DNA of 64,000 nt from Spizellomyces punctatus DAOM BR117 (lineage: Eukaryota). The notes beneath the pieces are model-generated. The model had not been told where the DNA came from, searched no databases, and saw only the letters and a list, made by a program, of their open reading frames with translations. The position numbers and the translations under genes are program-made. The stretch lies in assembly GCA_000182565.2 (NCBI GenBank), contig KQ257450.1; one strand, given 5' to 3'. Shown here piece after piece: positions 37,012-64,000 of the stretch (the stretch's first letter is position 1; the number at the start of each line of letters is the position of its first letter).

Positions 37012-37095
37012 GCAGGATTGGCGAAATTGGTATACGCGTCAGACTTAAGTTCTGATGGTCGCAAGACCGTGTGGGTTCGACCCCCACATCCTGCA
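37012..37095 (+). tRNA. tRNA-Leu(UAA), intronless, long variable arm
   Basis: Acceptor GCAGGAT/ATCCTGC+A, D-loop TGG, anticodon stem TCAGA-CT TAA GT-TCTGA, variable arm GGTC-GCAA-GACC, T-loop GTTCGAC; oligo-T Pol III terminator ~25 nt downstream. Confidence 0.95.
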
Positions 37096-43357: not shown

Positions 43358-44003
43358 CTTTAGCAAATCTACTCGTTCCTGCTTGAGAATGAATCATCTG
43401 GATTGCCCACGTCATGAAAGGCAACTACGTATTTCGCGTTTTGCGGTGTCATTGCTCATTCCAAGCAGCATAAATTCATACACCAATGCGATACCATTCA
43501 TGTCGGTTAACAGCAGAAGGAGCTGCCCGTGCTACCAGTGGCCATGCTATTGTTAGCTGGACAATACCGCTTTGCGCACGATACCCCAAAGCTAATATCG
43601 AAGTGTAGTCTCAAGCTAAATTACTGTCTCCCGTATTTTTCTTTGTTCCAGCCAAGATTTGTATGCAAAGATTGCTTCAGCACCAATATGCCTGACGATT
43701 TGAAAACATATCTTCATTGATAACATGGCGCTAAATACCAGTACCCGAAACAGCTGAACAAAATGACGTAAAGTCAAAACCCGACAATGAGCTGGGTGGA
43801 CACCCATCTGAACCAATCCCAAACTCCGCCGTTACCCTGGTTGACAGACGTCTACTACACGATGCATCCTTCTCGCTATCATCAGAGCGGAATGCTCTTC
43901 TTCTGATCTTACCAACTGCTGGTTGTCATTGAGCTCTACTTCGCCTCAGATCGACCATTGAGTAAGCACCGTGTCATGTGATAGCCTTGCCTCCGCATTC
44001 ATA

Positions 44004-44030
44004 TCGACAGCCGATGGGTATTGGCACTAG
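44004..44030 (+). repeat. Fanzor left terminal inverted repeat
   Basis: AGCCGATGGGTATTGGCACTAG is the reverse complement (1 mismatch) of the CTAGTGCCAATACCCACCGGCT segment I recall near the 3' end of the SpuFz1 omegaRNA scaffold (from memory, to be verified). Confidence 0.7.
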
Positions 44031-44116
44031 TACAGTGATTCCAACCAATTGAATCATAATTTTACTCGATTTAGACTCATGAACTATGATTTGATAATGG
44101 TTCGATGCCCAAACGA

Positions 44117-44207
44117 TGCTCCACCATTGAAAAACGGGTCCAATATGTGCGGCAATGAACGGATTGAATATTCTGCAGTTGCTCCACCATTGAAAAACGG
44201 GTCCAAT
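44117..44207 (+). repeat. Perfect 28-bp direct repeat x2 (44117-44144, 44180-44207)
   Basis: TGCTCCACCATTGAAAAACGGGTCCAAT twice, separated by 35 bp. Confidence 0.95.
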
Positions 44208-44224
44208 GCGCAGTTGTCATATCT

Positions 44225-44320
44225 CTATATAAACCTGCCTTCTCTGCCCATTTCCCAGGTTTTCATCATTCTCTGCCGATAGGTTTTCATCATTCTCTGC
44301 CCATTTTCCAGGCTTTCATC
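44225..44320 (+). promoter_or_regulatory. Putative TATA box and tandem pyrimidine-rich 5' repeats of the Fanzor gene
   Basis: CTATATAAA at 44225; AGGTTTTCATCATTCTCTGCC at 44257-44277 and 44281-44301, plus a degenerate third copy, ahead of the ATG at 44342. Confidence 0.5.
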
Positions 44321-44341
44321 CATTTTTCTATTCCAATCATC

Positions 44342-45427
44342 ATGCCGCCAAAGAAAAAGCAAAAGCTTGAAAAACTCGACAAACCCACCTTACATACCTG
44401 CAACAAGACTTCCTTTGCAAAAGCTTTCCTGCCAAACTATCGCCAACAGCTTCTAGATTACATCGCCATCATCCATCAACTCGCCAACCACGCTTCCCAT
44501 GCTCTCAAATTCTACATCCTATCTGCACCAACCTTCACCATGAACGAGGAGACCATCGAAGCGATTCTCTATCTTCTCAACAAGGGGGAGGCTTGGCATC
44601 CAAGAAAGGAAGCAAAGAAGGCATGGCGGGATTGTTTGCTGCCATATGTTCAACGGTACTGCCAAATCGTCAGCTTCGTTCACCCAAATCTACGAGGCGA
44701 GCAGCAATCAGTCAATTACCTGACAGCGAGTATGATGACGAACCTGAAAGTCAACGTTCAAGAGCATTTCATGCAGATGCTCCTTCGGTACATTAATCTG
44801 CGGCTCGACGTGAAGGGACAGAAGCAGCGACTGCCACCAAAAAGCAATGCGCGAAAGGCTTTCTTTACTCGGCTACGCTACTTGAAGTCAGTTTTCCTTT
44901 TTGATGTGGTGCCCGAGTTGGAGTTCCTGGATGACTTGACACCATTGGAGAGCGAGGTTCTTGAAGAGATTTGGTCATTGGATCTCCCATTCCTTCCTAA
45001 CGATCCCCTTGCCTACACCATTGTTGCTGATCCAATGTCATTTTTTCCCGCGTACTGCAAACTCTCTGGGCTGTATGAACAATATGGCTTCTGACGGTTC
45101 AGTGCGATACCTCTGCGCCACTCACTCATTCAAAGTCACGTGTGAATCGACACCATCATCCTGTACCAGCATATCCTTTGCATCATGTGGCGAGATGCAG
45201 AAACTGTCGAAAAGGATGATCTGTGGATGCACGTCTGCAATCTATGTACCAAGGCTTTTCGGTCTCGCTGTGGTATGCATTTTGAAGGCTCGATCACCAC
45301 GGACGGAGCCTCGGTGTCTGTATACCTAAAGCACCCAGAAGCAGACAAGTATGGAAAGCGCAGAGCGAGAAAGTCAGCAAACACGGTGGCTGCAGAGGTT
45401 AAAGCGCTTTATGTGGAGAACAACTTA
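44342..45427 (+). pseudogene. Fz1: Fanzor1 RNA-guided endonuclease (SpuFz1-like), N-terminal ~362 codons, two in-frame TGA stops, RuvC/TNB missing
   Basis: MPPKKKQKL NLS, HTCNKTSFAKAFLP, MMTNLKVNVQEHF, F*RFSAIPL..SLIQSHV*IDT, HFEGSITTDGASVSVYL (Fanzor1 WED motifs); TGA at 45092 and 45143; similarity ends at YVENNL. Confidence 0.92.
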
Positions 45428-46137
45428 CTACAAAGTGAGGCACTGTGGGACAATTTCATCAAAAATATTCCCAGGGAAAAAGTGCCACAGGATAAAACCA
45501 ATGGTAAAAATTGGAAGCTTATGGAAAGTAAAAAATTATGTAGAGACATGTAGGGATGAGAAATGTCCCCATTTTCCTAGCAAGATTGCAAAAAGAATAG
45601 AAATATCCACATGTTTAAATGGCAACATTGGTTTCCTTGTTTACACAAAAATCCACAGAAGATGTAGGCAACTCAGGCGTCAGAACTCATCCCATCTCAA
45701 CATTACCTTCGAGGCATACCAGCCGGGATTGGCCGCTCCGTGCCCGGCATGCCTTCCGGCATATGGCTCTGCACCAGGATCCTCATGTCCGTTCTTCAAA
45801 CGGACTACATCTGCGCCGGCATCTTCCGCCGCTTTTGATGCTACTTTTTTACATGTAGCCCTGGGATTTCGTTTTCTTTCTTCATGCATGCCGGCACGGC
45901 GAGCGGCAAAAGTGGTAGATATGTACTGTTGACAATCATGATGAACGATAGCATGATTTCGACCATGCAAATAGTTTTTTAGTTTATCCAAACATTCATA
46001 GCAGGAATACACAGCGCATTTCAGACATATGCAGAGTTGATATTCTCTAAAGCCTGTACAAGTATCGCAACGCATCGAAACGCGCATTTTTATTATAATG
46101 AGTGGAAGATTATTCAGCGTGCATTTTAAGTACCTTT
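45428..46137. mobile_element. Unidentified AT-rich inserted segment or element terminus
   Basis: Abrupt compositional switch at the Fanzor break; terminal hairpin CAAAGTG-AGG-CACTGTG and dispersed AAWW..CCACAG-like motifs. Confidence 0.5.
45680..46087 (-). CDS. Small Cys-rich (Zn-finger-like) hypothetical protein, 135 aa, intronless
   Basis: MRVSMRCDTC...CICLKC...CYEC...HGRNH; ATG preceded by AT-rich ATAATAAAA. Confidence 0.5.
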   Translation of the reverse strand: MRVSMRCDTCTGFREYQLCICLKCAVYSCYECLDKLKNYLHGRNHAIVHHDCQQYISTTFAARRAGMHEERKRNPRATCKKVASKAAEDAGADVVRLKNGHEDPGAEPYAGRHAGHGAANPGWYASKVMLRWDEF

Positions 46138-46737
46138 TGTAACGACGAGGACGTCTTCGAGAGATCGCGAGTAAGCCCAAATCGGACACGGGAAGCACGA
46201 ATCGCGTGACCAACTCCACCGATTGGGTTACCGCGACCGAAAAAACCGGTTCGGAGAATGGCAATTGGCGCATTAGATTTCAGCGTGCCTCGTACAACCT
46301 GTGGAGGCCCGAGCCAGTGCGGAAAAGGAAGAGATCAGTACCGCCACCAATAAATCAGTTGCGGTGCAGCGACACCCATTAGTTTAGTTTAGTTTAACAG
46401 TTTATCCAAGAATCTTGTATAAAAAGGATGTATTCAATAAAATAAGTCGGGGGCAGAAGCCGTAGCGACACAAAATCCCCATAACTCGCTTCTCAACTCC
46501 AATCTTAGGTTAACAGGAACCTAACAGAGCGCTTCAACGGCCTGATCACCCGTACCGAAGCCTCTAAATCCTGCTCGGTTCACAACTAACCGACTCTCCT
46601 TGCCTCTCGCCCCCAAGTCGCTACCGACGCCCAAAGAAAGGATTCGGAGACTATGATTCCTAGTACGGCCACCCACATAACCTGCTAGGAGACCCAAGTC
46701 GTCTTTACCGTAGTCTACCAACAAAAAATCCGCTACA
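46138..46737 (+). repeat. Gypsy 5' LTR (~600 bp)
   Basis: Begins TGTAACG and ends CGCTACA (imperfect terminal IR); internal TATAAAA and AATAAA; immediately followed by the PBS. No second copy is present to confirm it. Confidence 0.75.
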
Positions 46738-46752
46738 TGGTGGAGAAGCGCG
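46738..46752 (+). other. Primer binding site, complementary to the tRNA-Ala 3' end
   Basis: TGGTGGAGAAGCGCG directly after the LTR CA. Confidence 0.7.
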
Positions 46753-46811
46753 ACGAACCGCCTTCCCCTCTCAAATTCAGCTGAAAACCTTATTCGGTCA
46801 TACCGAAACTC

Positions 46812-49800
46812 TTGCGCAAACCGAGATCCGCTCAGGTAGCTACTCGGAAACCTTTTCTCTCATTTCGGAGACAGAACTTCACAAAACCAAGAATGATGCC
46901 GGTGGAACGCTCACCAACGCGAGGCCGCTCACCTGTGATCCAGACTCGTAGTCAGGGTCCTGCGGAGGACGTCGAAGTCCCTCCCGCAACACGCCCAAGG
47001 CGTTCAGGGACCACTTCCATCGAACCGGAAGCCCCTAACTTGGCCACGATGGCCTCTGAAGTGGCAGCATTAAAAGAAGACATTGCCCGCTCGACTGCTG
47101 CAATGCAGTTGGCAACTCAAAACCTTACGGAACAGCTTCATAGGCTTTCCGAATGTCAGACAGCGGCGGATGAGCGCCTCGCACGAGCCTTAGAAGCCCT
47201 AGCGCATCGCCCGCTGCCTGAACAACCTCCCATAGCACGAGCTACAAGAGAACGGTCCGCAACCCCGTGGGAAACGGCGGACACACCAAGGGAGCGTACC
47301 GAACCAAGTTTTTCAGGTGCGGTGCCTCCAATCCAAGTGCCAGCGGCCCCGTGGGCCAGCGACACCAAGGTCGATTCCTTGAAAGCAAAGGACGTACCCG
47401 AGTTTACGGGCAGAAGAAACCAAGATGTTGAAGAATGGCTTAACAAAGTCCAACTTCTTCAAAACGTTAGCGCAACTTCGGATGCCAGGATGGTACAGCT
47501 CCTACCAGCCATGATAGCCGAGAAAACCCCTGCTGACGCTTGGTTTTACACTCTGGAAGCCCAGGAAACTCGCTCATGGACCTGGAAAAGGTGGAAAGAG
47601 GAACTGCTTCGAGAGTTCCGAGATCCGCTAACCGAGTCCAAGCGCAAAACCGAATATGTGCGCTGCCATGCGAACCCCAAAGAATTTCGCAGCTTTCTCG
47701 CGTTCATCGACCACAAAACTCATCTCCGGCGCCTCGCTTATGGCGACCGGGCAAACATAGAATGTCCCGCTGACCAGCATTTCGACCTAATAGTCGAACA
47801 ATTGCCCAGCGACATCCAAATCATGGTCAAATCCTGTAACGTCACGAACCTGACCAAATTAAAAGACTTCCTGCGCCTTTATTTCGGCTCTGATGACACC
47901 AGAAAACGAGACCCTTGCTACAGCGGTGCTGCAGAAGCTCAGAAGAAGTCACAAAAGACCGGAACTGACAAAGGCCCTAAGCAGACGGCTCCGCATAAAA
48001 CCGGAAACCCCGAAAAGGGTCGCGATGGTCCTCAGAAGATGGTTCCGGACCCCAACAAGGAACCACCGGCACCCTGCAAATTCTGTCAGAAAAAGCATTG
48101 GAATGTTTTCTGCTGGCAGAACGCGAACCGAAAAGATCCTGAAGATGGAAAGAAAGGACCATATGGAGCACCCATGCCCTCAGGTTGGAAACCCAAACAG
48201 GAATCGAAGAAGGCATACATAGTGGAGCTGGACTCGACGTCCGCTACCACCGAGACTCTTTTTTCAGCTTCGGAACTGGAAAGAACGGAAGCCACTAATC
48301 AAGGATTCCACACCATCGGGTTCTTTCATTCACCCAAGCACTCGGAATCAACAATTTTGATGACCGCACCTCTTTCCAAGGTCACGGTGACCAAGGAAGA
48401 GGACCCCCGCACGCCCACGCAGGGCTGGGACCAAGTCTGGGACAACATAGCCATCATCTGGGGCACCCCGCAAGTGGCTCTGATGATGGGCAACAACCCC
48501 CGCGTGCTCAGCTTCTTCGCCAAAGAACTGAAGCGAGGCGCCGGGCACCTCGGGAACGACCCCTACGCAGTCGTGTGGAGTTCCCACCACCTCTACATCG
48601 CTGCCGCAGCCGAAGCTGACAAGGATCGAATCCTGCGAAAGGTCCGAGAAGACGGTACCCCTCGTTTGATTCTCCTTGCCTGGATAAAGCTCGACGAGCG
48701 CGAGAAATTCTTGATGTGGAGCTCTGAAGATCCTGTTATCTTTGATGCGTACGCCAACCTGCAACTGGTGGCATTTCTCCTGACAGGCAATATCGTTCGC
48801 TCAGACTATTATTATCGTCGTGGAAACCCCAAATTTCGGCATGTTAAAGACCATCCACGTCTCCAAAGACACGAAGAGAGCGAACGGACGCGTATAGTCA
48901 TGCTGGCTATCGAACAAGTTGCTCGCCAGAATAAAACAACAAAACCACAAAATGACAAAACTAGAGAACACTTTGAGAGTGTGATCAAGGCTACGGAAGC
49001 AACAATTAATGACATCGCGCCCCATTTCGAGATCGCAGTGCCTTCTATCAACGCCTTCTACTCAGTAGATTTAGGCGATGTACTCAAAAGCCAGACTAAG
49101 ACCCAAACGCAGCCTTGCTGGACGCTAGCCGTCATCGCGCAGCTCTGGGCACCTGTGGTACTAGACACAGGGGCCTGCGAGTCTCTGATTTCCGACACGT
49201 ACCAAGGCCTTCTGTTCTCCGAAACCGATTTGCAGGATGCGGAAACGATGGCTTTCAACGGCATTGGTGGACATATCTCATCTACCAAGACAGTATGCCT
49301 CAAAACTTCCCTCAGAGGCCGCGGCGGAGAATACCTGACTTTCCGCGCCTACTTTCGGGTCATCGCATACGGGAAACCTCTCATCATCCTAGCCAACGAC
49401 GTTTTGGGACATTTGAAACTCCAAACCTTGGTTCAGGAACCCCCGTTACCCAGTTTCGCGGTGACACTCAAGAATCCAGACATCCTTATCCCCTGCTCCA
49501 TAACGGATGAGCTGGATACCGATCACATGCGCGGCACGCCATACAAAACCAAGCAGGGTGAATTCATGAAGGATGTGTCAATGCCACGGCTGACCAAAGC
49601 CAAAGCTCAGAAGTCTAGATTAACCATGTTAATCACGGGACAGATGCGCGTGGCAGCCCAAACTTTCCTCATCGAAAACCCTCTTGATGCCACCGCAGCT
49701 AGCACAACGGCCCCGTTAGGCCTCAAACTGTCCACCGCGACCCATAATTCGGTCGCGGACCCCGAAGAGAACATTTCCGAAGAAGAATGGCAGACACTTC

Positions 49801-52800
49801 GGAACAAATGGAACCTCAACTCTACAGAGAAGGCTCCAGGGGCCTTCGAAGCCCAATTAAAAGACGCGGAACATTTCCACGTCGATCTCAAACGACCCAA
49901 ACCTGTGGTCTGGGCCCTAATCAACATTCTACGACACTTCCATCAAGCCTTCAGCTATGAGGGTCATCTCATAGGGAACTACACCAAGATTCCTTATGCG
50001 CCTCGATTTATCTTGGCTCCGCCACCCCTTTCGAGGCCACGGTCGTACTCTCCGTTGGAGCGGACAGCCCTCGAGACGGAGTGAGACACCATGATGGGGC
50101 TTCAGAGGTGGAAACGAACCACCGAAGTAACCTTCGCCAGCGATCCTGTTATTATTCGCTACGCAGACAAACCCCCGCAGGTAGCCTTCGACTATCGCCG
50201 AGCCAACGACTGCATGGCCTGGGATCCATATCCCTTTCCCATCATGCTCGACATCCTGAACTGGATCGTTGCAGTCCCATTCCGATACATATCGGGAGGT
50301 GACGCAAACAAAGGATTTTACCAAATCGCCATCACTGATACGTCGGTACGCAAATGGCTCGCGATCAGACTCCACGATGGCATCTACGAACCACTTTTCA
50401 TGCCCTTCAGACCCAAGACTGCCCCCTCGCACTTCTGTCGGGTGATGGACGACACCTTGGGTCCCTCCAAATGGCGAAATATCAACAACTTCGTCGACGA
50501 TATCCATACACGAGCGGAGACAGCCGCGGAAGCCCTAGATGCCATCGCAGACTGGCTCGACCGCTTTTCCAGGGCCAAACTCACCCTAAGACTCGACAAG
50601 TGTCAATGGCTCTTTCACCAGCTCACGGCCCTCGGTTTCGTTGCCTCTTCCCAGGGCCTCGCTACCAATCCAGACAAGGTCGCAACCATAGTCGATTGGC
50701 CACGACCTAAATTTATTGGTGACCTATGGTCCTTCGTGGGTCTCCTTGGGTTCTATGCCCAATTCATCCCTCGCTACGCGGAACTCGTCCGACCCCTGCA
50801 AGACACTATCCAAGAGGGCGTTCGTGAATACCGAGACCTTAAAAAGGGTCGCGCTGACCCAAGGAAAGGAGCTGAAAAGCTCAATTCACCGTCCATGCTT
50901 GACACGGCAGTGGCCCCAACAATCACAGCAACCGGAGCCCGATTTGAGGTTTCGCAACATCTTAAATCTAGCTCCTCAGACCTACCGGCGGTCAATCTAC
51001 GCCAATCATCGCTGGCCGACTTGCCCATTGACCCCTTTTGTGTCGGACGCCTTGCTCGCAAGCGCCCCGACCAAGGTCTGCGCAGATTCGTCGCGAAGCG
51101 TGAAGTTTCATGGACCGACTCCCGAAACTCTGCCTTCGCAGCCGCCAAGCAGGCTCTGACAACAGCTCCAGTGCTTGCGGCACCCAGAAAAGGGTTCCCC
51201 TACACCCTTCACAGTGACGCTTCCTACACAGCGTTTAATGTCATGCTCGAACAGTTACAGCCGGATGCTTCTAAACGCCCGCTGTGCTACCATTCCCGAG
51301 GCACCACCACCTCGGAAAAGAAGGCCCCACCTGTCGAACTCGAGGCCGGATGCCTCATTTGGGGCCTCGGAAAACTCCGCCCATACCTCGAAGGCCTGCC
51401 TTTCACGGTCATTACCGATCACCGAGCTCTTTTGTGGCTCGCCAAATACAAAGGCGAGAACCGAAAGCTCCTCCGCTGGGCCCTCGATCTTAGTTACTGG
51501 TCCGAATGGATGACAATCGTACACAAACCAGGACGCTTCCACATAGTCGCTGATACACTTTCGCGGCTACTTGGCGCGGAAACTCTTCTTTGCTCTACCG
51601 CAACCGAAATATGGGTGTTGGAACGCAAAGGATGACGGCCGCGCACCCCGCCAGCCGGTCCCGCACCCTCCTCAACACTGGCAGATGCCATCTTTCGTTT
51701 GGCGTTACAGCCCGCACTCATCACCGCCATCCGCGCTGGCCTCACCGGCCCGCTCCACCCCATCGCCCAACAGGCCCGCACCCTTCTATGGGAGACCAGC
51801 CCCGACACGTACACTACCGCCGACACGCACTTTCTTCAGGACTGGCAATGTGCAGATAACCTGCTGTGGCACCGTTTTTCAGTCTCCAAAGACCTTTGGC
51901 GCCTTTACGTGCCCCCTGCTTGCACCCCTGAGGTGCGCAAGCTTTTTCACGAGGGGGGAGGACACTTCGGATTCGAAAGAACCTACGCTAGAGCTGCAGC
52001 GCAAGTCTGGTGGCCGAAAATGGCACAAGATTTCAGAAAACACTGCGCAGGATGTGAAACCTGTCAACGCTCAAAAAGGGTACCGCAACTGATTCCGGGG
52101 TTGCTGAAACCCATACCACCAGCTCCGGGACGCTGGACAGTCATCACGACTGACTTCGTAACCAAGCTCCCACTTACTTCCAGAGGGTACGACGCCTTTT
52201 GGTTAATAGCATGTAAATGCTCAAAGAGGATCCACGTATGGCCCCTCAAGAGCACTGCGACAGCTATTCAGGTCGCGGAACTCTTTATAGAGCGCTACGT
52301 CCCATTGCACGGCATCCCGGAGACCATTATCTCGGACCGCGACTCCAAATTTACGAGTCGATTTTGGCAGGAGGTCTGCAAAAACCTAAAGATTAATCAA
52401 GAGCTCACCACAGCCTACCACCCTCAAGGTGATGGACAATCAGAAAGAGACAACGCAACGGTCTTGCAGGTCCTTACCACAATGGTCAACACCCGATTAG
52501 ACGACTGGGACACCTTTCTTCCGGTTGCGGAATTCATTATCAACAATACGGTACACGAGGCGACAAAAATGATGCGATTCAGAATGGACCTAGGCTATGA
52601 GCCCCACAATCCACTGGCGGACATCGTCGAAAGGCCGTCAGAAACCAGAAATGCAGATGCGGAGGAGCTCTGTAAACACCTCGGCGACCTAAACATCCTT
52701 ATCCGAGATCTGATGATCGAAGCCCAGGATTCGCAGAAAAGATATTACGATTTATCGCGACGACATTTGGAGTTCCGGAGAGGAGATAAGGTGCTTCTGA

Positions 52801-54371
52801 GCACGAAAAACCTAGCAGGGTATGAGTCCAAGATCACTCCGAAATGGCTGGGACCAGTCACGGTGACCGACTGTAACCCTCTCCGCGACAACTACAAGTT
52901 AAAACTGCCAGACAAGATGAGACGACTTCATCCATGGTTTCACATATCGAAATTACGTCCGTACCAGAAGCCTGTCGACGCCGAAACTGAGGAAAAGGTC
53001 GCGGAAGCACAAGCGGAGGATTCTGACGCTTCAGATGGCGAGTTTGAAGTGGAAGCGATAGTAGACCATCGAACCAGGCGCGGAAAATGTCAATTTCGAA
53101 TACGTTGGTCCAGATACCCACCCCATGAGGATACCTGGGAACCAGAGGAAGCCCTAACAGAGGCTTCCGAAGCCTTAGAAGAGTACTGGAGATCCAGAGC
53201 TCCCACTAGCGCGCTAGTAGAGGACTCTTTGGTAGTCAGCCTTGCAGGCGACGCCCCGGAAGATACAGCTTATGCTTCCGACCACCAATGCTTTGCGGTT
53301 TATCCGGACGATAGCTCACGTGATAATCACGCCCTCTCACCAGAAAGAAAACCAGTTTCGCGTGGCTTACCTCACCAGTCGAGAACGCCACACCAAGCCT
53401 CCCGATCACGCTTACGTGCGTCCGAGCTGTCAAAATCAGCCGGCGACGACCTTAAAAGGACGCCCCTGCACGCTCCCCCTCTTTTTTCTTCTTCAACCGC
53501 CCACGACCTACTTCCCTTACACACTCACTCTGCTTCACAAACCCCTTCTATCGACACCGAAACTAAAACTTCCATTTCTAACACAATGAACACCGATCTC
53601 AGAGGACAAGCAGGAGTGAGCGTACCCTCCACGTACATGTCCGGCTACCCTTGGGAGGAAGACTCGGGCGACTTCGAGGCCGAGGGCGTGCTGGATCGCC
53701 TTGGGGTTGCGATCGCTACCTGGGTTCACTCCTGGGTTCATCAGCTTCGGACCAACCCCAACGCGCCGCTGCAGACTCCAGGGCATGAGTTTTGGCTGGG
53801 AGTCGACGCTCCGAAACCTTACGCGGTGGGCCAGCCCCTCACAAACCACATTGCGGACCCCTACAGCAAGGCCACCGATGGTGGTGAAGCAGCGGTCAGA
53901 ATAGTTGCCGACGCGAAAAAACCCGGAAAAAGAGGGCGCCCAGCTCCGTGCGCCGCTTGGCTCGACCGCGGGGTTCCCCAACACGAGGCGGGAAGCCGAA
54001 AAACGGCTCCATTCACCGATTGGCCGAATGACGACGCCCACAAGTTTGCGTCCACCGTCATTGAAGCAGCTAGGACGGTGCTCCTAAGGACGGCGAACGC
54101 AGCGGAAGCCTCTGCAAGGCTCACCAGACCCCGACATCACGAGCACGCGGAGTACCATTTTCGCGCGACAAACCTGAAAAGGGCCGCGGAGACCTTTACG
54201 GCCCTCTACGTAACCAGAACTGGCCCCGACGTGACCCCGGGTACCATCGTTCGTACCGCAACAGATCAAATCTGGTTTTGTTGCAACGTCGGTGGCCGTG
54301 CCAGTATCATCTGGGTCGTGAACCAAGATGCAGATGAAGCGGACCCCACAGATCCGGTACTGACCTGGTAA
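46812..54371 (+). pseudogene. Gypsy gag-pol single reading frame with two in-frame TGA stops (50082, 51633)
   Basis: ORFs 46812, 50091 and 51699 share one frame. Capsid (PEFTG..VEEWL), CKFCQKKHWNVFC knuckle, VLDTGA protease, RT (DANKGFYQI, MPF, FVDD), RNase H (LHSDAS, TDHRAL), IN (GGHFG..CETC, ISDRDSKF, HPQGDGQSE), GPY/F-like region, chromodomain ~53040-53190. Confidence 0.92.
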
Positions 54372-54384
54372 TTGACGTCCCAAC

Positions 54385-54765
54385 TGTTGGAATTAATTGA
54401 TTGATTTCATCGAAGTTGCCATGGGACGGTAACTTGAATAACTTAGCGAGTTATTAACTTATCGACAAGACCAAGACGGTTCTAGAAAGCCCTGAATCCG
54501 CGCTACAAGCTTGTCAAAACACTTCGTTAGTTAGTTGCTTTATGCGCCCAAAATTAGAGGTCGAAGTCAGGTTGTCATCATGTGATCTGTACTATATTTA
54601 GGACCCCGTTTTTCTTTCTGTAATACAACTCTTTCGCTGCTCTTTCGACACAAAGTCCCCAGAGACGTTCTCTAGCGACGGCATAGCTTCTAACATGGCT
54701 ATCCACCTCTCAGGTGCACCCAGTCTAGTTGTAGGATAACACCTATTTCTCGACTTTCCCCAACA
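54385..54765 (+). repeat. Copia 5' LTR
   Basis: Identical to 59478-59858 except one A/G difference (GTCAAAAC vs GTCGAAAC). Confidence 0.95.
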
Positions 54766-54777
54766 GGTTATGAGCCC
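54766..54777 (+). other. Copia-type PBS (internal half of initiator tRNA-Met)
   Basis: GGTTATGAGCCC directly after the LTR, like the Drosophila copia-type half-tRNA PBS. Confidence 0.8.
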
Positions 54778-54851
54778 TGGTTGCCTGTCAGACAGCTGAG
54801 AACAACGCGAATACGAACTACTGAGCGGTGTATTGAAAAAGGAAGCAAAGG

Positions 54852-57800
54852 ATGCCCCTGGACAGAACACCAGCGCAAAAGGGAAAGAGAAAGATGTCTC
54901 TTTCTGGTCAGTTTGAGGAGATTGAAGAGCACGCCAGAAGGGAAGCTCAGCAAGCTCAGGACGACGACATCAGTAGTTACCTGGAAGCTCAAGACGAGCC
55001 CCAGTACCTCACTCAGGAGTCCTTTTTGGAGTTCAAGGACGAGATGAGGATGTTCAGAAGAGAGCTTCTGAACAATATTCAGGAAGTTTTGGGACAGAGG
55101 ACCCAAACCCAGCCAGCTAGAGCCGCGGAAACACTTCCTACGATGGTGCAGGAGGTGCCATTCAAACCAGAGCAGAACTTGAGGCATAGGGATGCAGATA
55201 TCAAGTCAGAAGGCTCTCGGAGCACATTCTCTCATGAGGAAGAGAAGCAGGTGCTAAAGACTTTGAGGGAAGAAGTCCCTCGCTACCATGGTGGTAGCAA
55301 CACTAATAAGCTGCTAGAGTTTGTGCGCAAACTTGAAGAGTACTTCAGCATAGCAGAACTGCCCCCCAGACTGGAACTGAAGGTTGCCACGTCAAAGCTG
55401 AAGGATTCTGCAGAGGTTTTTTGGGGGAACCACCTCACAGAGGTTGAGGAGGATGATCCAAGGCGAATCAGGACTTGGAGTCAGCTGCGGAAGGCTCTGC
55501 TTGAGCGCTTCACACCCCCAGATTACCAGAGGAAAACTCTGGAGAGACTTTTCGACATCTCTCAGGACACAGAGAACCTCACCATTGTCGAGTTTATTGA
55601 CCAGTTCACCAATCTATCCATGCAAACAATGGTGCTGCATGACGAGGTGATGAAGGTATTATTCCTGCGAGGATTGCGCAAGGATTTGAGAGCCAGCATT
55701 GAGGCAAATCCATCGAACTTGGACAGCATGGAGACGCTCAAATTGGCTGTTTTGAGACTGGAATACATCAACAACCCACGGGTATTCAACCAGTCAAAGC
55801 AAGGGAAGAAAGCTCATGTCAATGCGGCTAAGACGAACCAATATGACGACCAGAAACAGTCCCACAACTCCCAGAGCTATGGAAAGGCGACCAACGGCAC
55901 CAATGGCAAGAAGCAGACGATGCAGAAGACCTGTTTTACCTGTGGGAACCCAGGCCATCTTGCATACCAATGCGCCATGAAGGAGAAGAGCGGGTCGCAA
56001 ACCACTGGAACAGCCAAGGGAGACAGTACAGCCAAGCTGGCTGTGGATAAACAAATGGATGGTCATCAGGACGATGCGAAAGCCATTGCTTTGATTAGCA
56101 GGAAGCTACCACAGCAATCTTACAGCAAGAAGGTCCAATTTATAGTTGATTCGGGCTGTAGCCAGCATATGAGTCCCCACAAAGAACTCTTTGTCAATCT
56201 GAGGCCCATTTCACGACAAATTGTGCTTGCAAATGACGAAGTTATCAATGCAGAAGGCATTGGTACTATCCCCCTGGAGTTGGAGACTCCAGGACAGCAA
56301 CATCAACGGCAGGTGGTGTTGCAGGACGTCCTGTATGCCCCAGAGTTGGGCTGCAATCTTCTGTCTATCAGAGCCATTATTGACAATGGCATGGACGTCA
56401 CCTTTTCGCAGTCTGGAGGAGTGGAATTCCATCTAGATAAGCGATTGTTTGCTGCAGGAAACAGGGAAGGGGAGCTTTACAAGCTTGCTGCTTACCCTGG
56501 CAGCGCGAGCTGTGACTCCCAAGTGATGGGAGCTGAAGTACAGCATGAAGACCAAGCTTTGGGTCGCCCTGAGAAGCAGGATGGCGGGAAACTGAAGCTG
56601 TGGCATCGGCGGTTAGGCCATTTAAGTTATGGCAATTTGAAGACGCTCACCAGTATGGTTGATGGTCTTAATTTTGATGGCAAAGCAGTGGTTGAAGACC
56701 AGCTTTGTGATGGATGTCAGAAGGGTAAACAAACACGATTGCCCTTTCCTGAATCACCCAAGAAGAGTTACCAGCTTTTGGAGGTCATATGTAGCGACAT
56801 ATGTGGACCAATACGCACCAAATCGCTTGGTGGAGCCAGATATGTGCTCACATTCTTGGATCTTGGAAGCAGATATAGCAAATGCTTCTATCTCGACTCG
56901 AAATCAGCGACGTTGTGCCTAGAAAAGTTCAAGGAATTTAAGGCCTGGATCGAGAATCTGACTGAAAGGACGATCAAGGCATTCAGAACTGATGGCGGCG
57001 GTGAGTTTGTGAACCACCAGTTTGATGCCTACCTCAAATCTGAGGGCATCACCCACCAAACTACGACGCGCTATACTCCCCAGCAGAATGGAGCTGCTGA
57101 GAGATTGAACAGGACTCTGGAGGATAAGGTTCGGTCTATTCTGCATGAGAATAACCTTCCCCAGAAGCTGTGGGCAGAAGTCTGGGAATCTGCCAATTAT
57201 TTGAGGAATTTGAGCCCGACCAAGGCGCTGCTGGAGAGGAAGATTACCCCCTCTGAGGCCTTGACAGGGGCGCGCCCTAATGTAGAGCATCTGAGAGCAA
57301 TTGGATGTGTCGCCTACATGCAAATACCGAAGCAACTACGAGGGAAACTGGATCCCACATCAGCAAAGTTGATTCTGGTTGGTTATGGGCAAAATTCACG
57401 ATGTTATCGACTGTGGAATCCCCAGAATGACACCATCTTGGAGTCTAGGGATGTGGCATTTGATGAGACGGTTAAAGGGCAATCTGACGCATGCTCTGAA
57501 CTGATGGGTTCACTTCTGGAAGAAGAAGAGCAGGAGTTCCCTGTGGAGGAGATCCTTGCTGAGGATAAACAAGGCGACGAGACATACTACCTTGTCAAAT
57601 GGAAGGGTTACCCCAGAACTGAGAGTACTTGGGAGCCATTGGAGCATGTCAAGGACACTGTCACACTTGACCTCTGGGAACAGCAGCATTTCCCCAGTGA
57701 TTTGGAAGGAGAAAACAACGATGTTGACGCCTTCCATGCACACCTAGGAACGCCTTCAGGACCCCCCACCACCACCACCACAGATCTGGAGATGCAGCAA

Positions 57801-59447
57801 GAAGGTTTCGGCCATGAAGACCCAAAAACACTTAATGGCGCGCTGCGATCACCCCAGAAAGAAGCCTGGATGCAAGCCATGGAGGCTGAATATGCATCAC
57901 TGGTCGAAAATGGGACGTGGGAAATCATCCCCAGACCCTCTGGAAGGCCTGTAATTGGCAGCAAATGGGTCTATAAAACAAAGCGGAAGACTGACGGCAC
58001 TGTAGAAAGGCACAAAGCGAGATTTGTAGCCAAAGGGTACAGTCAAATCCATGGATTGGACTATGATGAGACCTTTTCACCCGTCATCTCCTTCCCTGCT
58101 CTGTGACTGATCTTTGCCCTGGCAGCAAAGCATGGGCTTTTATTGGATCAAATGGATGTTGCAACAGCATTTCTGAATGGCGAGGTTGATTCAGAGCTGT
58201 ATGTGGAGCAACCCCTAGGAATTTCAACAGAGCACCCACCAGACAAGTTTGTTTGCTTGTTGAAGAAGGGTCTCTACGGTTTGAAGCAAGCTGGAAGGCT
58301 ATGGAACCATACCCTGCATGCGTACCTCCTCGAAAACAGCTTTAAACAGCTGGCGCACGAGCCTTGTGTTTACATTTGGCAAGGGGAAGAGGTTCAGGAA
58401 GCCAAACCACATGAGAAAGATGAGTGCGCAAACATAAACAAATGGCTCATCATACTGGCGGTTTATGTCGATGATCTGGTTATTGCAACCAAGTCAAAAG
58501 AAGACATGAATTGGGTCAAAACGACATTGTCAGCGCGATTTAAGATGCAGGATCTTGGCCCTATCCACCACATCTTGGGTTTAAGGGTAATCAGAGATGA
58601 ACCGCGCAGCATTCTTTCCCTGGATCAAGCACATTACATTGGTGAAGTGCTCAGAAGATTCAAGATGGAAAACTCGAACCCAGTGTCGACCCCACTGGAT
58701 ACCTCTGTTCGATTTGAGGCTCTTGGGTCAAGGCAACCCATGGTAGATAAATCGAAGTACCGCAGTGCAATAGGCAGCTTGATGTTTGCTGCGATTGCCT
58801 CTAGGCCTGACATCAGTACAGCAGTTGGGATACTTGCTAGGCACTGTGAGGCGCCTGGAAACATGCACTGGACGGGCATAAAGAGGATATTTCGGTACCT
58901 GCAAAAGACAGCAAGCTACGGGCTTGTTTATCAGCAAAACAGCGACGATCTGGAAGCCTATTCCGATGCAGATTGGGGTGGAGACCTCTCAGATAGGAAG
59001 TCAACCTCAGGATGGCTTCTCAAGCTATCAGGCGGCGCTATTGCTTGGAAATCTTCAAAGCAGAGATGCACAGCACTCTCCACAGTTGAGGCAGAGTATA
59101 TTGCGGCATCAGATTGTGCACGAGAGGTTATTTGGATGAGAAACCTCTTAGCAGAGCTCGGGTTTTTGGAAGTCAAACAAGGCCCTACTGTGCTCAAAAT
59201 GGATAACAACGGCGCGATGGAACTGGCAAAGAACACCCTGATTTCACAACGGACGAAGCATATTGATATACGCTATCATTTCCTCAGGGAACACATCCAG
59301 AGTGGCGAGATTTCAGTTAGAAGATGCCCCACTCAACAGATGACTGCAGATGTTCTTACCAAGGCAATTCCTGCACCGAGGTTTGCCCAGTGTTGTGTAG
59401 AACTTGGCGTTCAATCACTGGATGACGCAACAAACAAAAGAGCCTAA
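54852..59447 (+). pseudogene. Copia gag-pol with one in-frame TGA (58104)
   Basis: CFTCGNPGHLAYQC knuckle, FIVDSGCSQHM, LWHRRLGH, RTDGGGEF/PQQNGAAER, chromodomain 57534-57683, KARFVAKGYSQ, YVDD, YSDADWGG, KHIDIRYHF. Confidence 0.93.
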
Positions 59448-59477
59448 GAATAGAATGGAATTTTGGGCGAGGGGAAG

Positions 59478-59858
59478 TGTTGGAATTAATTGATTGATTT
59501 CATCGAAGTTGCCATGGGACGGTAACTTGAATAACTTAGCGAGTTATTAACTTATCGACAAGACCAAGACGGTTCTAGAAAGCCCTGAATCCGCGCTACA
59601 AGCTTGTCGAAACACTTCGTTAGTTAGTTGCTTTATGCGCCCAAAATTAGAGGTCGAAGTCAGGTTGTCATCATGTGATCTGTACTATATTTAGGACCCC
59701 GTTTTTCTTTCTGTAATACAACTCTTTCGCTGCTCTTTCGACACAAAGTCCCCAGAGACGTTCTCTAGCGACGGCATAGCTTCTAACATGGCTATCCACC
59801 TCTCAGGTGCACCCAGTCTAGTTGTAGGATAACACCTATTTCTCGACTTTCCCCAACA
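59478..59858 (+). repeat. Copia 3' LTR
   Basis: Preceded by polypurine tract 59465-59477; 381 bp. Confidence 0.95.
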
Positions 59859-62800
59859 GTACCATCATCGTGTACAGGCTATTAGTTGTAGCATTCATTG
59901 GCTGCTTCGTTGCCAGTGCTGTGTTAACAGCATTGTTGTTGTTAGTAACCGTTGTTGTCAATGAAGATAACGATTGACTAATTGGTGCAATATTGTCAAT
60001 TACAAATTTCTGAGTTGCGGCTTCAATGCCAGCAATATAGAGCATTCCGCCAATATAGGCATCGGTCGAAACTCCAAGGCCTCCACTCACAACTAAATTA
60101 CCTGAAGGGTCAAGTCTGAGAACATAACCTTTATCTTGGAATGAAGAGTACAGCCCAAACACTCCAGAAGGTAGGGTTCCATTCGATGAACCAGAAACAT
60201 GGATGCCCCATGTCTGTGCAGTGCTAGTATTGCCTAGAGTAATAGCGGTAGCACTGGGGTTTGAATTTTGTGCCATTAAACCACTTAGATTGAGAGAACT
60301 TGATGGTGAAATCAAGGGTTGATATGCGCTGAGAATTTCATCTTTAGGTACAATCCTGAAAAAACCGCCATTTCCACCCATCAAAAAAGTTCCATCGGCC
60401 GGAGTTAGACTACTTATATTGTCAAGCAAAGGGGATAGGTTTTGTTTACCAGACAAACCTGTTGTTACAAAGGATTCCGTGGCAACTTTGTTCGCATTGG
60501 TGTAAATACTTCCACCAACGTACAAATCCTTTGCTATACCGACACCACCAGGACAAACTAGGGCACCTGTTGTCGAAGAGGTTGATACGGTCGATGCATC
60601 CAGTGTAACGTTTCCAGTTGTTGCTGCAATATTGATTCCACGTGCGCCTTGTGATTGCAACCGAAGAAGACCATCGTCGTTCCTGAGTGTCATGCTTCGA
60701 GCCCCTCCATCCACGGTTCTCGAAGAGCCATTTAGAAAAAGAACACCTGAATTGGCTGAACCATTGTTTAGAAACAGAATTGGACATGCATTATTCCCGC
60801 CGCTGCTGTTCCTTATAACAAGGCTCCTCAGACCATTTACAGGTGAGTTCCCCACTGTCATATCCCCTTCAGTGGTTAGATTTTTCCCAAATGTAGCAGA
60901 CCCATCTGTGTCAATTCAAAGCCCTAATGAGGGCGCACTCGAAGTTCGAGAATATATGTACATAGGCAAATCCTGGGCACCGAGCCATGTTGCAGCACCG
61001 TTGTTGTATCCTAAGAATCCCGTTCCATCAAGACCAAGCCATGAACTCTTAGTTCCATCGAATGTAGAATATGTCATGACCGATGAAGTGCCTGTCGAAG
61101 CCGGAGCAATACTCAATCTGGTTCCGGTGATTACTTTACCACCGATATTGCCTCCAAATGTAACATTGTTTGACGTCAAATTCGTAATCTGTGTTCCTAC
61201 CCATGGTTTAATAACCTCGGTATCATAATCCCGTAGCATCGAGAGGTTAATCGCTTGTTGGGGGTGCTCATATTTGATGGTACGATAGCAACTTGGTACA
61301 TCAAATAGTAATCGAGTGCAGCCTCCAATCGGGTCCGAAGCAATTGCAACATTGCTTCCAGGCTCTAAAGGCGGCATGAAGGTAACAGGGTCGATTGGTT
61401 CGTATACAGGGTTACCTTCACTATCGAGCACAGGTTGCCCTTCTGAATCTCTTTGTACTTTTCGTTCTCTCTGACCACCGAAAATCATTCCCCAAGGAAA
61501 CGTTGAGACGATTGGGAGGATGGAGTTTACAGCCATGGGAACTGTTAACGGTGGCGATACCATTGCTGGAAAGGGTATTGTTGTCAGAGGGGTTGTGCCA
61601 GAGAGGATAACCACATTTCCACCAGGAACATCCATTTTTAACACTTCAGCTGTGTCAGTCTGTTCAGTATTATCGGTATCCCTTTGTTTGGACAATGGTG
61701 TAGGGTCGATGAGGGTAAAGTTATATAGCGGATAACTTCCTGTGATAATCAAGTTGGGTGAATTGGATACAAACTGCGGTGGTATTAAATTGTATGAAAT
61801 CTGGTTCCCAAGAATCAAGACACTTCCGTAAGAATTTGTCGAACCAATGTAATTTCCCTTCAAGGTATCACCCACATGAAGAACGGTATCGCTTCCGGAA
61901 AGGGAACATGAAATCAAGTCTCCGGAAACACTGACACCGTTTATTCCACGTAAGTTTGCAGATAAAACGGCACCATTTTTCTGAAGCCCAATCCCAGCGC
62001 TGATATTGGAACTTAAGACTCCATTGTTGAGAGTTAAATCAGGAGACTGTGCTGTTAAGGATAATCTGAAATCACTGCCAACCCGTGTTATTCCTTGGGA
62101 TGCTGTGAATATATCACGGATTGTATCACGACCTGACATTGCAAGCCCTGAATTCGCATCACATTTCAAACTCAATTGTATATCGTTCTGCAATCTCTCA
62201 ATTCCATTGCTACATGTCAGTACATCTTTTATCGTATCTGCTTTGACCATTTGGAGACAACTACCAGCCTCGGCTTTTAACGATAGTACCACATCGTTAG
62301 TTGTACCAGGTCTAATAGCAACTCCATTAAAATCCTGAAAAATCAGTCCTGAAACAAGTTGATTACCAATGATGCATATGGTCTGGTTATCAACCAAAAC
62401 CCCAATCTCGCGCCGTCCACTAAACTCGGGGCCGATAGCAATTGCACCTGTTTGACTGCCTTGATAATACTGACTCAAGTAGTCCTTGGACACAGCATAC
62501 GAGCCTCCACCGATTGCTGGTAATGTACCGCTCAATTTCACGTTAGGCACTCGTAACTCCTGTAGCGTTGTCGAATAGGTGAATGAAGGACTCCCACTGT
62601 ATCCATAAGTCATGTTACCATACAGTATCTGCTCGTATCCTGGACTCTTCAAAGACAACTTGGAACCGGCTTGACTGAATGTAGAAGTGTCGGTCATGAG
62701 TCGAATGGCAGTCGTATCTACCTCCCCTAAGACGTCTGTGAGTTCAGTCAGAGATGAGAAGCCGAAATCAAGCCAACTGCTTCCGATGTCAAGGATACTG

Positions 62801-63130
62801 TCTGCTCCAGACGATGTCTTTATTGCCCCAAAAGCCTTGAATAGTTGACTTGTATTTGTTTCGAGTTCATCTGAACTGTTCACCTTCAAACTCTTGTGAA
62901 GTTTGACACCGATTCCATTGTCACGATATAGTGGTTTCTTCAGCGTCTCTGGCGGTGGAGGGTCAGGAAAGTTGACAGAGAGTCCGTTTTCGTTTATGAT
63001 AAAACTATCATCTGCCAGTAAACCAATAGTCCTTGTATCTGCATCATGATATAATGGAAACTCGTAATTCAAAGGAACAACTGTCAATTTTCCATTATCC
63101 ACTTTCAATTCATCATCATCAATTTGTATA
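59859..63130 (-). pseudogene. Large intronless viral fibre/adhesin-like protein (>1000 aa), one in-frame TGA at 60916-60918, C-terminus cut by the Copia element
   Basis: ORFs 60916..63130 and 59836..60861 are in one frame (GL*IDTDG); Gly/Ser/Thr/Asn-rich, beta-spiral-like repeats, STSSTTGALVCPGGVGIAKDLYVGG motif. Confidence 0.65.
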
Positions 63131-63513
63131 NNNNNNNNNNNNNNNNNNNNNNNNNNNNNNNNNNNNNNNNNNNNNNNNNNNNNNNNNNNNNNNNNNNNNN
63201 NNNNNNNNNNNNNNNNNNNNNNNNNNNNNNNNNNNNNNNNNNNNNNNNNNNNNNNNNNNNNNNNNNNNNNNNNNNNNNNNNNNNNNNNNNNNNNNNNNNN
63301 NNNNNNNNNNNNNNNNNNNNNNNNNNNNNNNNNNNNNNNNNNNNNNNNNNNNNNNNNNNNNNNNNNNNNNNNNNNNNNNNNNNNNNNNNNNNNNNNNNNN
63401 NNNNNNNNNNNNNNNNNNNNNNNNNNNNNNNNNNNNNNNNNNNNNNNNNNNNNNNNNNNNNNNNNNNNNNNNNNNNNNNNNNNNNNNNNNNNNNNNNNNN
63501 NNNNNNNNNNNNN
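63131..63513. other. Assembly gap (383 N)
   Basis: Run of N. Confidence 1.
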
Positions 63514-64000
63514 ACCCGAGGCTCCCATTGGTAAGTATACCTGTTCCATTAGTTGCAGCGTGGTATGTACCCCAAGAATTACTCGAAGCAGCATTGTTAC
63601 TAATCAGAATGGCCGTAGATGCTGTGGCACTTGAAGGCGCATTGATGACTATGGCAGCCAGCTGCAATCCTCCTCCACCTGCTCCTAGGGTTAGAGTTTT
63701 TCCTATGCCGACTCCACCTGATACCTGGAAAGCACCTGTTGTCACACTAGTTGAATTGGTTGTGTTTGGTATCTGCGTTACGCCTGTATTGGAAACTCTC
63801 AGAACGAAGCCTGTATTGTTATAAGAACTATTTAGACCGAATCCGCCTGCTGATAATGTTCCGTCTCCTGTGCTTCCGGCAACTCTCATGCCCCATGTAA
63901 CATTACTCCCAGTATTTACTAAGGACAATGTTGTAGATGCTGCGCCATTTTGAATGGTTATACCCCTGCCAACAGTGGCACTGTTAAATGATAGCGCAGT
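63514..64000 (-). CDS. Upstream part (or paralog) of the fibre-like protein, open to the window edge
   Basis: TWGMRVAGSTGDGTLSAGGFGLNSSYNNTGFVLRV and TTNSTSVTTGAFQVSGGVGIGKTL repeat motifs found at ~60100-60600. Confidence 0.6.

What the first reader, a model, noticed from the sequence alone, without database searches (positions are those of the whole stretch)
44000..45427. Eukaryotic RNA-guided nuclease (Fanzor1) transposon, with its CATA TAM preserved at the insertion site
Seen: an ORF starting MPPKKKQKL that continues in frame through two TGA stops to HFEGSITTDGASVSVYL...YVENNL, preceded ~340 bp upstream by CATA|TCGACAGCCGATGGGTATTGGCACTAG. Established (recalled): this closely matches S. 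punctatus SpuFz1, a TnpB-derived OMEGA nuclease with a 5'-CATA TAM, whose omegaRNA comes from the element's right end and includes the TIR. Inference: this is a real insertion at a CATA site. The host sequence beyond the missing right end would have been the guide, and the rejoined empty site its target. This copy is dead, because it stops just before the RuvC-I aspartate. The system is published; the locus history here is what is new.
Basis: partly seen in the sequence, partly recalled or inferred. Interest (0 to 1): 0.85.

Follow-up and report, generated by a model that had tools for sequence, protein, structure and literature searches.

The report
Dead fragment of known Fanzor transposon
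This is a broken, mutated left-hand piece of the already published Spu-1/SpuFz1 Fanzor transposon in the reference genome of the chytrid fungus Spizellomyces punctatus, so it is an ordinary decayed copy of a known element.

Summary
Window 44342-45428 (+) encodes residues 1-370 of SpuFz1 (PDB 8GKH, E 2.3e-227; 93.9% identical to SPPG_07727). It has two in-frame TGA stops. CATA sits at 44000-44003, directly before the terminal repeat. The 250-aa ORF is an exact entry in NCBI/UniRef on a 2.24-Mb contig, so this is the S. punctatus DAOM BR117 reference. Saito et al. 2023 counted 42 full or partial Fz loci in that genome and described the conserved CA before the 5' repeat.

What I add:
- Homology stops at 45428, 13 codons before D383. 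No C-terminal half, right repeat or omegaRNA lies in the remaining 18.6 kb.
- The breakpoint is not the Ty3/Gypsy junction. 710 bp of low-copy DNA separate it from an LTR that starts at 46138.
- All 10 of 10 private amino-acid changes, and both stops, fit CpG-to-TpG/CpA transitions. This matches the published restriction of 5mC to transposons in this species.
- The TAM-reading residue R291 is now W.

Already known; low interest.

The parts
44000..44003 (+). CATA: the conserved CA plus TA (TSD or first two bases of the repeat). It equals the SpuFz1 TAM.
   Evidence: Sequence. The TAM and the conserved CA are from PMC10432273. The TA TSD is from PMC3627910.
44002..44036 (+). Left terminal inverted repeat of Spu-1: 30 nt from 44002 by Saito's description, or 33 nt from 44004 by Bao & Jurka's.
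   Evidence: Other family members in reads and contigs share sequence from 44009 onward. No inverted partner was found in the window at up to 10 of 30 mismatches.
44037..44341 (+). Element 5' non-coding region with two pairs of direct repeats (44117-44144 = 44180-44207; 44240-44270 ~ 44293-44324).
   Evidence: Self-BLAST. Similarity to ghost-type elements ends at 44095.
44342..45428 (+). Fanzor1 pseudogene covering codons 1-370 of SpuFz1 (the WED/REC part). TGA stops at 45092 and 45143; R291W, R268H; a private 6-nt deletion after 44436.
45429..46137 (.). 710 bp of low-copy DNA of unknown origin that replaces the 3' half of the element. It begins with TA.
   Evidence: No Fz, LTR or other repeat similarity. 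No Pfam family at E <= 10 for 45683-46138 (-); one sub-threshold match (C6_DPF, E 0.064, 14 bits against a cutoff of 27) for 45330-45932 (+), which begins inside the Fz pseudogene. The only homologues cover 16% of the query, which I infer is its LTR-derived part. Low read depth, and an X1 contig at 45334-45691 with 0 mismatches spans the breakpoint.
46138..46737 (+). 5' LTR (TG...CA) of a Ty3/Gypsy element whose genes follow at 46893-54371. It is not adjacent to the Fz breakpoint.
   Evidence: Repeat boundaries at 46138 and 46737, and poly(A) read ends at 46475, come. AATAAA is at about 46437.

Best explanation
This is an inactive 1.43-kb left-hand fragment of a Spu-1 DNA transposon, the element that encodes the RNA-guided nuclease SpuFz1 (Fanzor1), in the Spizellomyces punctatus DAOM BR117 reference genome. 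It keeps the CA-TA junction, the left terminal repeat, the 5' non-coding region and codons 1-370 (the TAM- and heteroduplex-binding WED/REC part). It lacks the RuvC and zinc-finger nuclease half, the omegaRNA gene and the right repeat, so it can neither cut DNA nor supply a guide. After it stopped being useful it decayed by CpG-to-TpG/CpA transitions, the mutation type expected from 5-methylcytosine deamination. These transitions produced both premature stops (CGA to TGA) and changed the TAM-contacting R291 to W. Shown: identity, truncation point, lesions, mutation spectrum, and that the junction is real. Inferred: that methylation caused the spectrum, and that the 3' half was lost by a deletion or one-sided repair event rather than by the neighbouring Gypsy insertion.
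For: Identity: PDB 8gkh_P at E 2.3e-227. 25 of the 42 homologues found are S. punctatus DAOM BR117 proteins, the best 92% identical. The exact 250-aa ORF is on record on a 2,242,449-bp contig. Truncation: tblastn finds only aa 1-370; D383, E541 and D606 have no counterpart. No right repeat at up to 10 of 30 mismatches, and the only Rfam hit is a tRNA. Junction: an X1 contig at 45334-45691 with 0 mismatches spans 45428/45429, while other copies continue CTGCTTGT. Decay: 10 of 10 private substitutions fit a single CpG transition. DNA reads show G or C in other copies at 44448 (298/300), 44540 (294/301), 45092 (46/46), 45120 (72/74), 45143 (74/78) and 45188 (90/90). 5mC is confined to transposons in Spizellomyces (PMC12695648, section 9 passage). 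CpG observed/expected is 0.80 in the fragment against 1.03 in the left flank. Expression: at the copy-specific site 44448, 1 of 55 RNA reads carries the window's base.
Against: The left repeat's recurrence at other Fz (not ghost) copies could not be checked directly. No genome is held, the repeat sequence is not in the text of the papers, and a metagenome scan gave one chance hit. CpG depletion is modest (0.80). Methylation of this copy was not measured. In DNA run X22, which carries the same species label, the window's private bases are almost absent (0/46, 0/90, 2/300), although 45489-46073 is covered at about 7-15 reads per direction. That strain or line may therefore carry a different version of the locus. 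How the truncation happened is unresolved.
Confidence: 0.9

Rival explanations
1. The element is not deleted but split. Another mobile element inserted at 45428/45429, possibly at the TA at 45426-45427, was later invaded by Gypsy and copia, and the 3' half of Fz with its omegaRNA lies beyond window position 64000.
For: Saito 2023 reports 11 Fz loci with extra genes between the repeats, including Ty3/Gypsy inside the Fz gene, and merged hits up to 25 kb apart. Everything from 46138 to the window end is repeat-derived: Gypsy, copia, and a multi-copy ORF family. The 710-bp stretch and 59859-63100 share low GC and CpG depletion.
Against: The DNA touching the breakpoint (45429-46137) is low-copy, has no LTR or TIR signature, and has no partner in the window. 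No Fz C-terminal half lies in the next 18.6 kb. The Gypsy has no 3' LTR in the window and the copia has no TSD, so the region has been rearranged rather than neatly nested.
Confidence: 0.3
2. One reading: a fresh insertion at a host CATA site whose history (guide = right flank, target = rejoined empty site) can be read from this locus and is new.
For: CATA precedes the repeat. The TAM is CATA, and the omegaRNA guide is the 14-15 nt beyond the right repeat.
Against: CA is invariant at all Fz and ghost loci, and TA is the TSD or the repeat start, so it carries no locus-specific information (2 of 2 ghost-type X1 contigs). The right end and guide are missing. No empty-site joint was listed in any of the 4 runs laid. 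The copy is old enough to carry at least 10 private CpG transitions. Partial loci in this genome were already counted.
Confidence: 0.1
3. The annotated 250-aa ORF (44342-45091) is a functional, nuclease-free TAM/DNA-binding protein, for example a regulator of Spu-1.
For: It is annotated as a protein. Several other 232-309-aa N-terminal Fz fragments are annotated in the genome. R96, Q129, Q130 and N133 are kept.
Against: The ORF ends at a CGA-to-TGA mutation. It lacks the R291 and Y345 region. Its substitutions are all mutational-decay type at otherwise invariant residues. About 1 of 55 RNA reads at the diagnostic site come from this copy.
Confidence: 0.03
4. The junction at 45428 is an assembly artefact.
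For: The region is repeat-rich and has an N gap at 63131-63513. X22 reads lack the window's private bases.
Against: An X1 contig of 358 nt with 0 mismatches spans the junction with 95 and 263 nt on its two sides. X1 contigs also carry the private bases at 45143 and 45092.
Confidence: 0.03

Closest known systems
Spu-1 element / SpuFz1 (Fanzor1) of Spizellomyces punctatus (Bao & Jurka 2013, PMC3627910; Saito et al. 2023, PMC10432273; PDB 8GKH)
   Same: It has the same protein over residues 1-370 (93.9% identity to SPPG_07727) and the same genome. CA-TA precedes the left repeat, and there are about 340 bp of 5' non-coding DNA before the ATG.
   Different: It lacks residues 371-638 (RuvC D383/E541/D606 and the zinc finger), the omegaRNA and the right repeat. 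It has two nonsense codons, R291W, R268H and small in-frame deletions.
Ghost Spu-1 elements (Saito et al. 2023)
   Same: They share the left-end segment 44009-44095 and the preceding CATA.
   Different: Ghost elements have both repeats and an omegaRNA but no Fz ORF. This locus has part of the ORF, no right end and no omegaRNA.
TnpB of IS200/IS605 (ISDra2)
   Same: The logic is the same: the TAM lies next to the left end and the guide is read from the right flank. This is the published comparison.
   Different: The similarity lies in the C-terminal half, which is missing here. No transposase is known for Spu-1.

Membership tests
Fanzor1 (SpuFz1) protein | Sequence homology to SpuFz1 WED/REC region | tested here: met
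   8gkh_P at E 2.3e-227 and Parasitella Fanzor1 9cf0_P at E 3.8e-19; 340 of 362 aligned residues identical to P0002.
Fanzor1 (SpuFz1) protein | RuvC catalytic residues D383, E541, D606 | tested here: not met
   Homology ends at L370. There is no C-terminal half anywhere in the window. Residue numbers are from PMC10432273.
Fanzor1 (SpuFz1) protein | C-terminal zinc-finger (NUC/TNB) domain | tested here: not met
   Absent, for the same reason.
Fanzor1 (SpuFz1) protein | TAM-reading residues R96, Q129, Q130, N133, R291, Y345 | tested here: not met
   5 of 6 are kept. R291 is W through a CGG-to-TGG change at 45188. The residue list is from PMC10432273.
Spu-1 transposon | Left inverted repeat preceded by conserved CA (with TA) | tested here: met
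   CA-TA is at 44000-44003 before the repeat, matching the description. Recurrence of the exact repeat at other Fz copies is only partly shown: similarity to other family members starts at 44009.
Spu-1 transposon | Right inverted repeat and TA duplication | tested here: not met
   No inverted copy at up to 10 of 30 mismatches in 64 kb, and no inverted repeats were reported. TA does follow the breakpoint at 45429-45430, but the chance of that is 1 in 16.
OMEGA system | omegaRNA (75-nt scaffold over the right repeat plus 14-15-nt guide) | tested here: not met
   No right end is present. The only Rfam family hit in the window is a tRNA. Folds of the left end are no better than shuffles, with z-scores of -0.68, -0.27 and +0.36.

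The most novel reading that the evidence does not exclude
The fragment could be a footprint of interrupted copy-repair. After a break at a Spu-1 donor or target site, synthesis from a sister copy would have started at the left end, aborted after 1.43 kb, and been joined to the right flank, which begins with the TA of the target site at 45429. That would be natural evidence for a Fanzor-linked cut-and-copy route in a eukaryote. The original target would then read CATA followed by 45429 or 45431 onward.
Probability: 0.06. Interest if true: 0.55.

Novelty: already known. Interest (0 to 1): 0.12.

Why it matters
It matters little as a discovery. The system, its TAM, its repeats and the existence of partial copies in this very genome are published. 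The modest additions are a documented example of how a Fanzor copy dies (loss of the nuclease half plus an exclusive CpG-deamination spectrum, in line with 5mC on transposons in this chytrid) and a correction: the nearby Ty3/Gypsy did not cause the truncation. The fragment can serve as a natural negative control when Spu-1 activity or methylation is studied.

Tried and rejected
- Whole-genome search for partner repeats: no genome is held for this window.
- Metagenome scan with the 19-nt repeat core: 1 locus, and reading it showed an unrelated chance match. No further scan was allowed.
- Repeat or omegaRNA sequence in the text of three papers: 0 occurrences. Supplements were not seen.
- Pfam on the read-through protein and on full-length P0002: no significant family in this Pfam copy, so no Fanzor HMM test was possible. 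PDB sequences were used instead.
- A left-end omegaRNA-like fold: not better than shuffles.
- A polypurine-tract-plus-LTR motif for a Gypsy 3' LTR in the window: 0 matches.
- Coding potential of 45429-46137: no Pfam family reached significance; the only match was sub-threshold (C6_DPF, E 0.064) on the + frame that begins inside the Fz pseudogene. Homologues of the minus-strand ORF cover only 16% of it, which I infer is its LTR-derived part.
- RNA holders: no RNA holder was listed by the index.
- Laid RNA run X21: it gives family-level reads only. Strand assignment is uncertain, because 5850 of 6361 reads lie only partly on the stretch.
- Empty-site or Fz-less joints: none was listed for any of the 4 runs. 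This is weak evidence for X22, whose reads are 38 nt.

Full report
**1. What is in the sequence**

CATA lies at 44000-44003 and is followed by TCGACAGCCGATGGGTATTGGCACTAG at 44004-44030. That 27-mer is unique in the window and occurs in 0 of 100 shuffles. An ATG at 44342 opens MPPKKKQKL. The frame is interrupted by TGA at 45092 and 45143 and otherwise runs to 45553.

**2. Identity**

- phmmer of the read-through translation (X at each stop) against all PDB chains returned 2 sequences.
  - The MBP-SpuFz1 fusion 8gkh_P scored E 2.3e-227, query 2-368 to chain 396-770.
  - Parasitella parasitica Fanzor1 9cf0_P scored E 3.8e-19.
- The large protein search gave 42 hits among 1476 candidates. By my count 25 of them are S. 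punctatus DAOM BR117 proteins. The best is SPPG_07727 (P0002, 638 aa, 92% identity).
- tblastn of P0002 against the window gave one real hit, aa 1-370 to 44342-45427; the 3 other hits have E >= 0.87.
- Over 362 aligned residues, 340 are identical.
- P0002 carries D383 in the motif IDPN, matching the residue numbering in the Nature paper.
- The window's 250-aa ORF is an exact entry in NCBI, UniRef and EukProt on a 2,242,449-bp contig. That contig length is also listed for three other S. punctatus proteins. The window is therefore the S. punctatus DAOM BR117 reference.

**3. What is already published**

Sources and how much I read:
- PMC10432273: passages, and the whole of section 7.
- PMC3627910: passages.

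Saito et al. 2023 report:
- a 2.1-kb Spu-1 locus;
- 42 loci with full-length (19) or partial Fz genes, and 134 ghost loci;
- 30-nt inverted repeats with a conserved CA before the 5' repeat;
- 11 loci with extra genes such as Ty3/Gypsy;
- an omegaRNA of 75 nt plus a 14-15-nt guide that runs over the right repeat;
- the TAM 5'-CATA.

Their search used tblastn at e < 0.05 on all DAOM BR117 contigs. It should therefore have found this fragment, but I could not open the supplementary lists.

Bao & Jurka 2013 describe 33-bp TIRs and putative TA target duplications.

CATA in the window is therefore the family-wide CA plus TA. It is not a relic particular to this site.

**4. The left end in other copies**

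No genome is held, so I laid public reads.
- Depth in DNA run X22 rises from about 42 reads per direction (43851-43967) to about 204 (43968-44084).
- RNA reads (91) and 2 X1 contigs share the segment from 44009, and their similarity ends at 44095. These are preceded by ...CATAGTGCGG, which I take to be the ghost-type repeat. Both X1 contigs show CATA.
- The output table was truncated (677 loose ends not shown). The boundary of Fz-type copies at 44002/44004 was therefore not seen directly.
- A metagenome scan for the repeat core gave one chance match.

**5. The right side**

- Reads from other copies match through 45428 and then continue CTGCTTGT, which encodes P-A-C as in P0002. The window continues TACAAAGT.
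- A 358-nt X1 contig (45334-45691, 0 mismatches) spans the junction, so the junction is real.
- 45429-46137 shows no similarity to anything else in the window.
- No Pfam family reached significance there; the only match was a sub-threshold C6_DPF hit (E 0.064) on a + frame that begins inside the Fz pseudogene. Its minus-strand ORF finds only 2 proteins, each covering 16% of the query. I infer that this is the ORF's LTR-derived N-terminus.
- Read depth over this stretch is low.
- A repeat boundary lies at 46138 (TGTAACG...). In other copies it is preceded by a purine tract, ...AAAGGGGGGA. A second boundary lies at 46737 (...CA).
- Within this span there is an AATAAA at about 46437, and poly(A)-tailed reads end at 46475.
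- I read this as a 600-bp Ty3/Gypsy LTR. It is followed by a 1063-aa ORF, RT/RNase H (50091-51635) and integrase/chromo (52020-54371).
- The Gypsy therefore did not cut the Fz gene; 710 bp lie between them.
- No Fz C-terminal half, right repeat or ghost repeat occurs up to 64000. Rfam finds only a tRNA.

**6. How the copy decayed**

- I compared the copy with five relatives (P0002, P0003, P0004, P0007, P0017). These are 5 of the 42 hits, chosen as near full-length.
- Ten positions carry a residue private to the window while at least 4 of the 5 relatives agree. All 10 can be explained by one CpG-to-TpG or CpG-to-CpA change.
- DNA reads confirm that other copies carry G or C at six of these positions and at the first stop (counts):

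| Position | Reads showing the other base |
|---|---|
| 44448 | 298/300 |
| 44486 | 388/406 |
| 44540 | 294/301 |
| 45092 | 46/46 |
| 45120 | 72/74 |
| 45143 | 74/78 |
| 45188 | 90/90 |

- One well-supported exception runs the other way: at 45308 the window has G and 702/766 reads have A. P0002 shares the window's residue there, so this is a subfamily difference.
- Both stops fit CGA-to-TGA.
- R291, which reads the TAM, is now W. R268, a backbone contact, is now H. R96, Q129, Q130, N133 and Y345 are kept.
- CpG observed/expected is 0.80 in the fragment, 1.03 in the left flank and 0.55 in the copia element.
- A 2025 Nature Genetics paper states that in Spizellomyces 5mC is confined to transposons (PMC12695648, passage in section 9). 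Deamination of methylated CpG is therefore my inferred cause. Methylation of this copy was not measured.

**7. Expression**

- RNA run X21 gives reads over the left end and the first 200 nt of the ORF. At the copy-specific site 44448, only 1 of 55 reads has the window's base. The reads therefore come from other family members.
- Strand assignment in this library is uncertain.

**8. Mechanism of truncation**

This is open. A deletion or one-sided repair (my preference) fits the low-copy DNA at the junction. A split by another insertion, with the 3' half beyond the window, is not excluded. Saito's loci span up to 25 kb, and everything from 46138 to the window end is repeat-derived.

**9. Points against my reading, or unexplained**

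- In DNA run X22 the window's private bases are nearly absent, although the 710-bp stretch is covered.
- X22 also shows fixed differences at 45445 (12/12 reads) and 45969 (14/14 reads).
- X1 contig 6 (1473 nt) covers 45662-46137, and its other 997 nt did not lie on the window beyond 46137.

**10. Verdict**

The system, and this class of partial locus, are already published. The proposed locus history cannot be recovered from the data at hand. Interest is low.

Noticed in passing
window 54385-59858: This is a Ty1/copia element (gag, integrase, chromo, RVT_2) with about 380-bp LTRs (54382-54766 and 59475-59859, 99-100% alike). The 5 bases on either side differ (CCAAC vs GTACC), so there is no target duplication. 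That suggests exchange between two copies, or a deletion. CpG observed/expected is 0.55, the lowest in the window.
   Followed up: partly
window 46138-54371: This Ty3/Gypsy element has a 5' LTR but no 3' LTR anywhere in the window. Its first ORF (1063 aa, 46893-50084) matches no Pfam family. RNA reads cover the LTR in both read directions, and poly(A)-tailed reads end at 46475.
   Followed up: partly
window 59836-63129 (-): A long minus-strand reading frame (about 1,100 aa, one internal stop) runs into the copia LTR. Part of it (60916-63129) has 4 paralogues at 81-83% identity on other S. punctatus contigs and none elsewhere. One paralogue carries a precomputed Pfam family PF06536. It is a multi-copy family of unknown nature.
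   Followed up: partly
window 44448-45188, run X22: In a DNA (ChIP-seq) run with the same species label, the window's private bases in the Fz fragment are nearly absent (0/46 at 45092, 0/90 at 45188, 2/300 at 44448). X1 contigs do carry them. This could be strain or line variation, or locus loss.
   Followed up: no
This may be an allele without the Gypsy insertion, or an assembly path through a different copy.
   Followed up: no
window 44117-44324: The Spu-1 5' non-coding region holds two pairs of direct repeats: a 28-nt exact pair at 44117 and 44180, and a pair of about 31 nt at 44240 and 44293. Contigs of other copies vary in this stretch. They may be promoter elements.
   Followed up: no
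window 43968-44552, run X21: Family-level RNA reads over the first 200 nt of the Fz ORF lie almost entirely in one read direction (76-84 against 1-3). That is the opposite direction to the reads ending in poly(A) at the Gypsy LTR, which hints at antisense transcription of Spu-1 5' regions. The library type is unknown.
   Followed up: no
window 37012-37095 and 63131-63513: There is a tRNA gene at 37012-37095 (Rfam, 56.4 bits) and an assembly gap of 383 N at 63131-63513.
   Followed up: no
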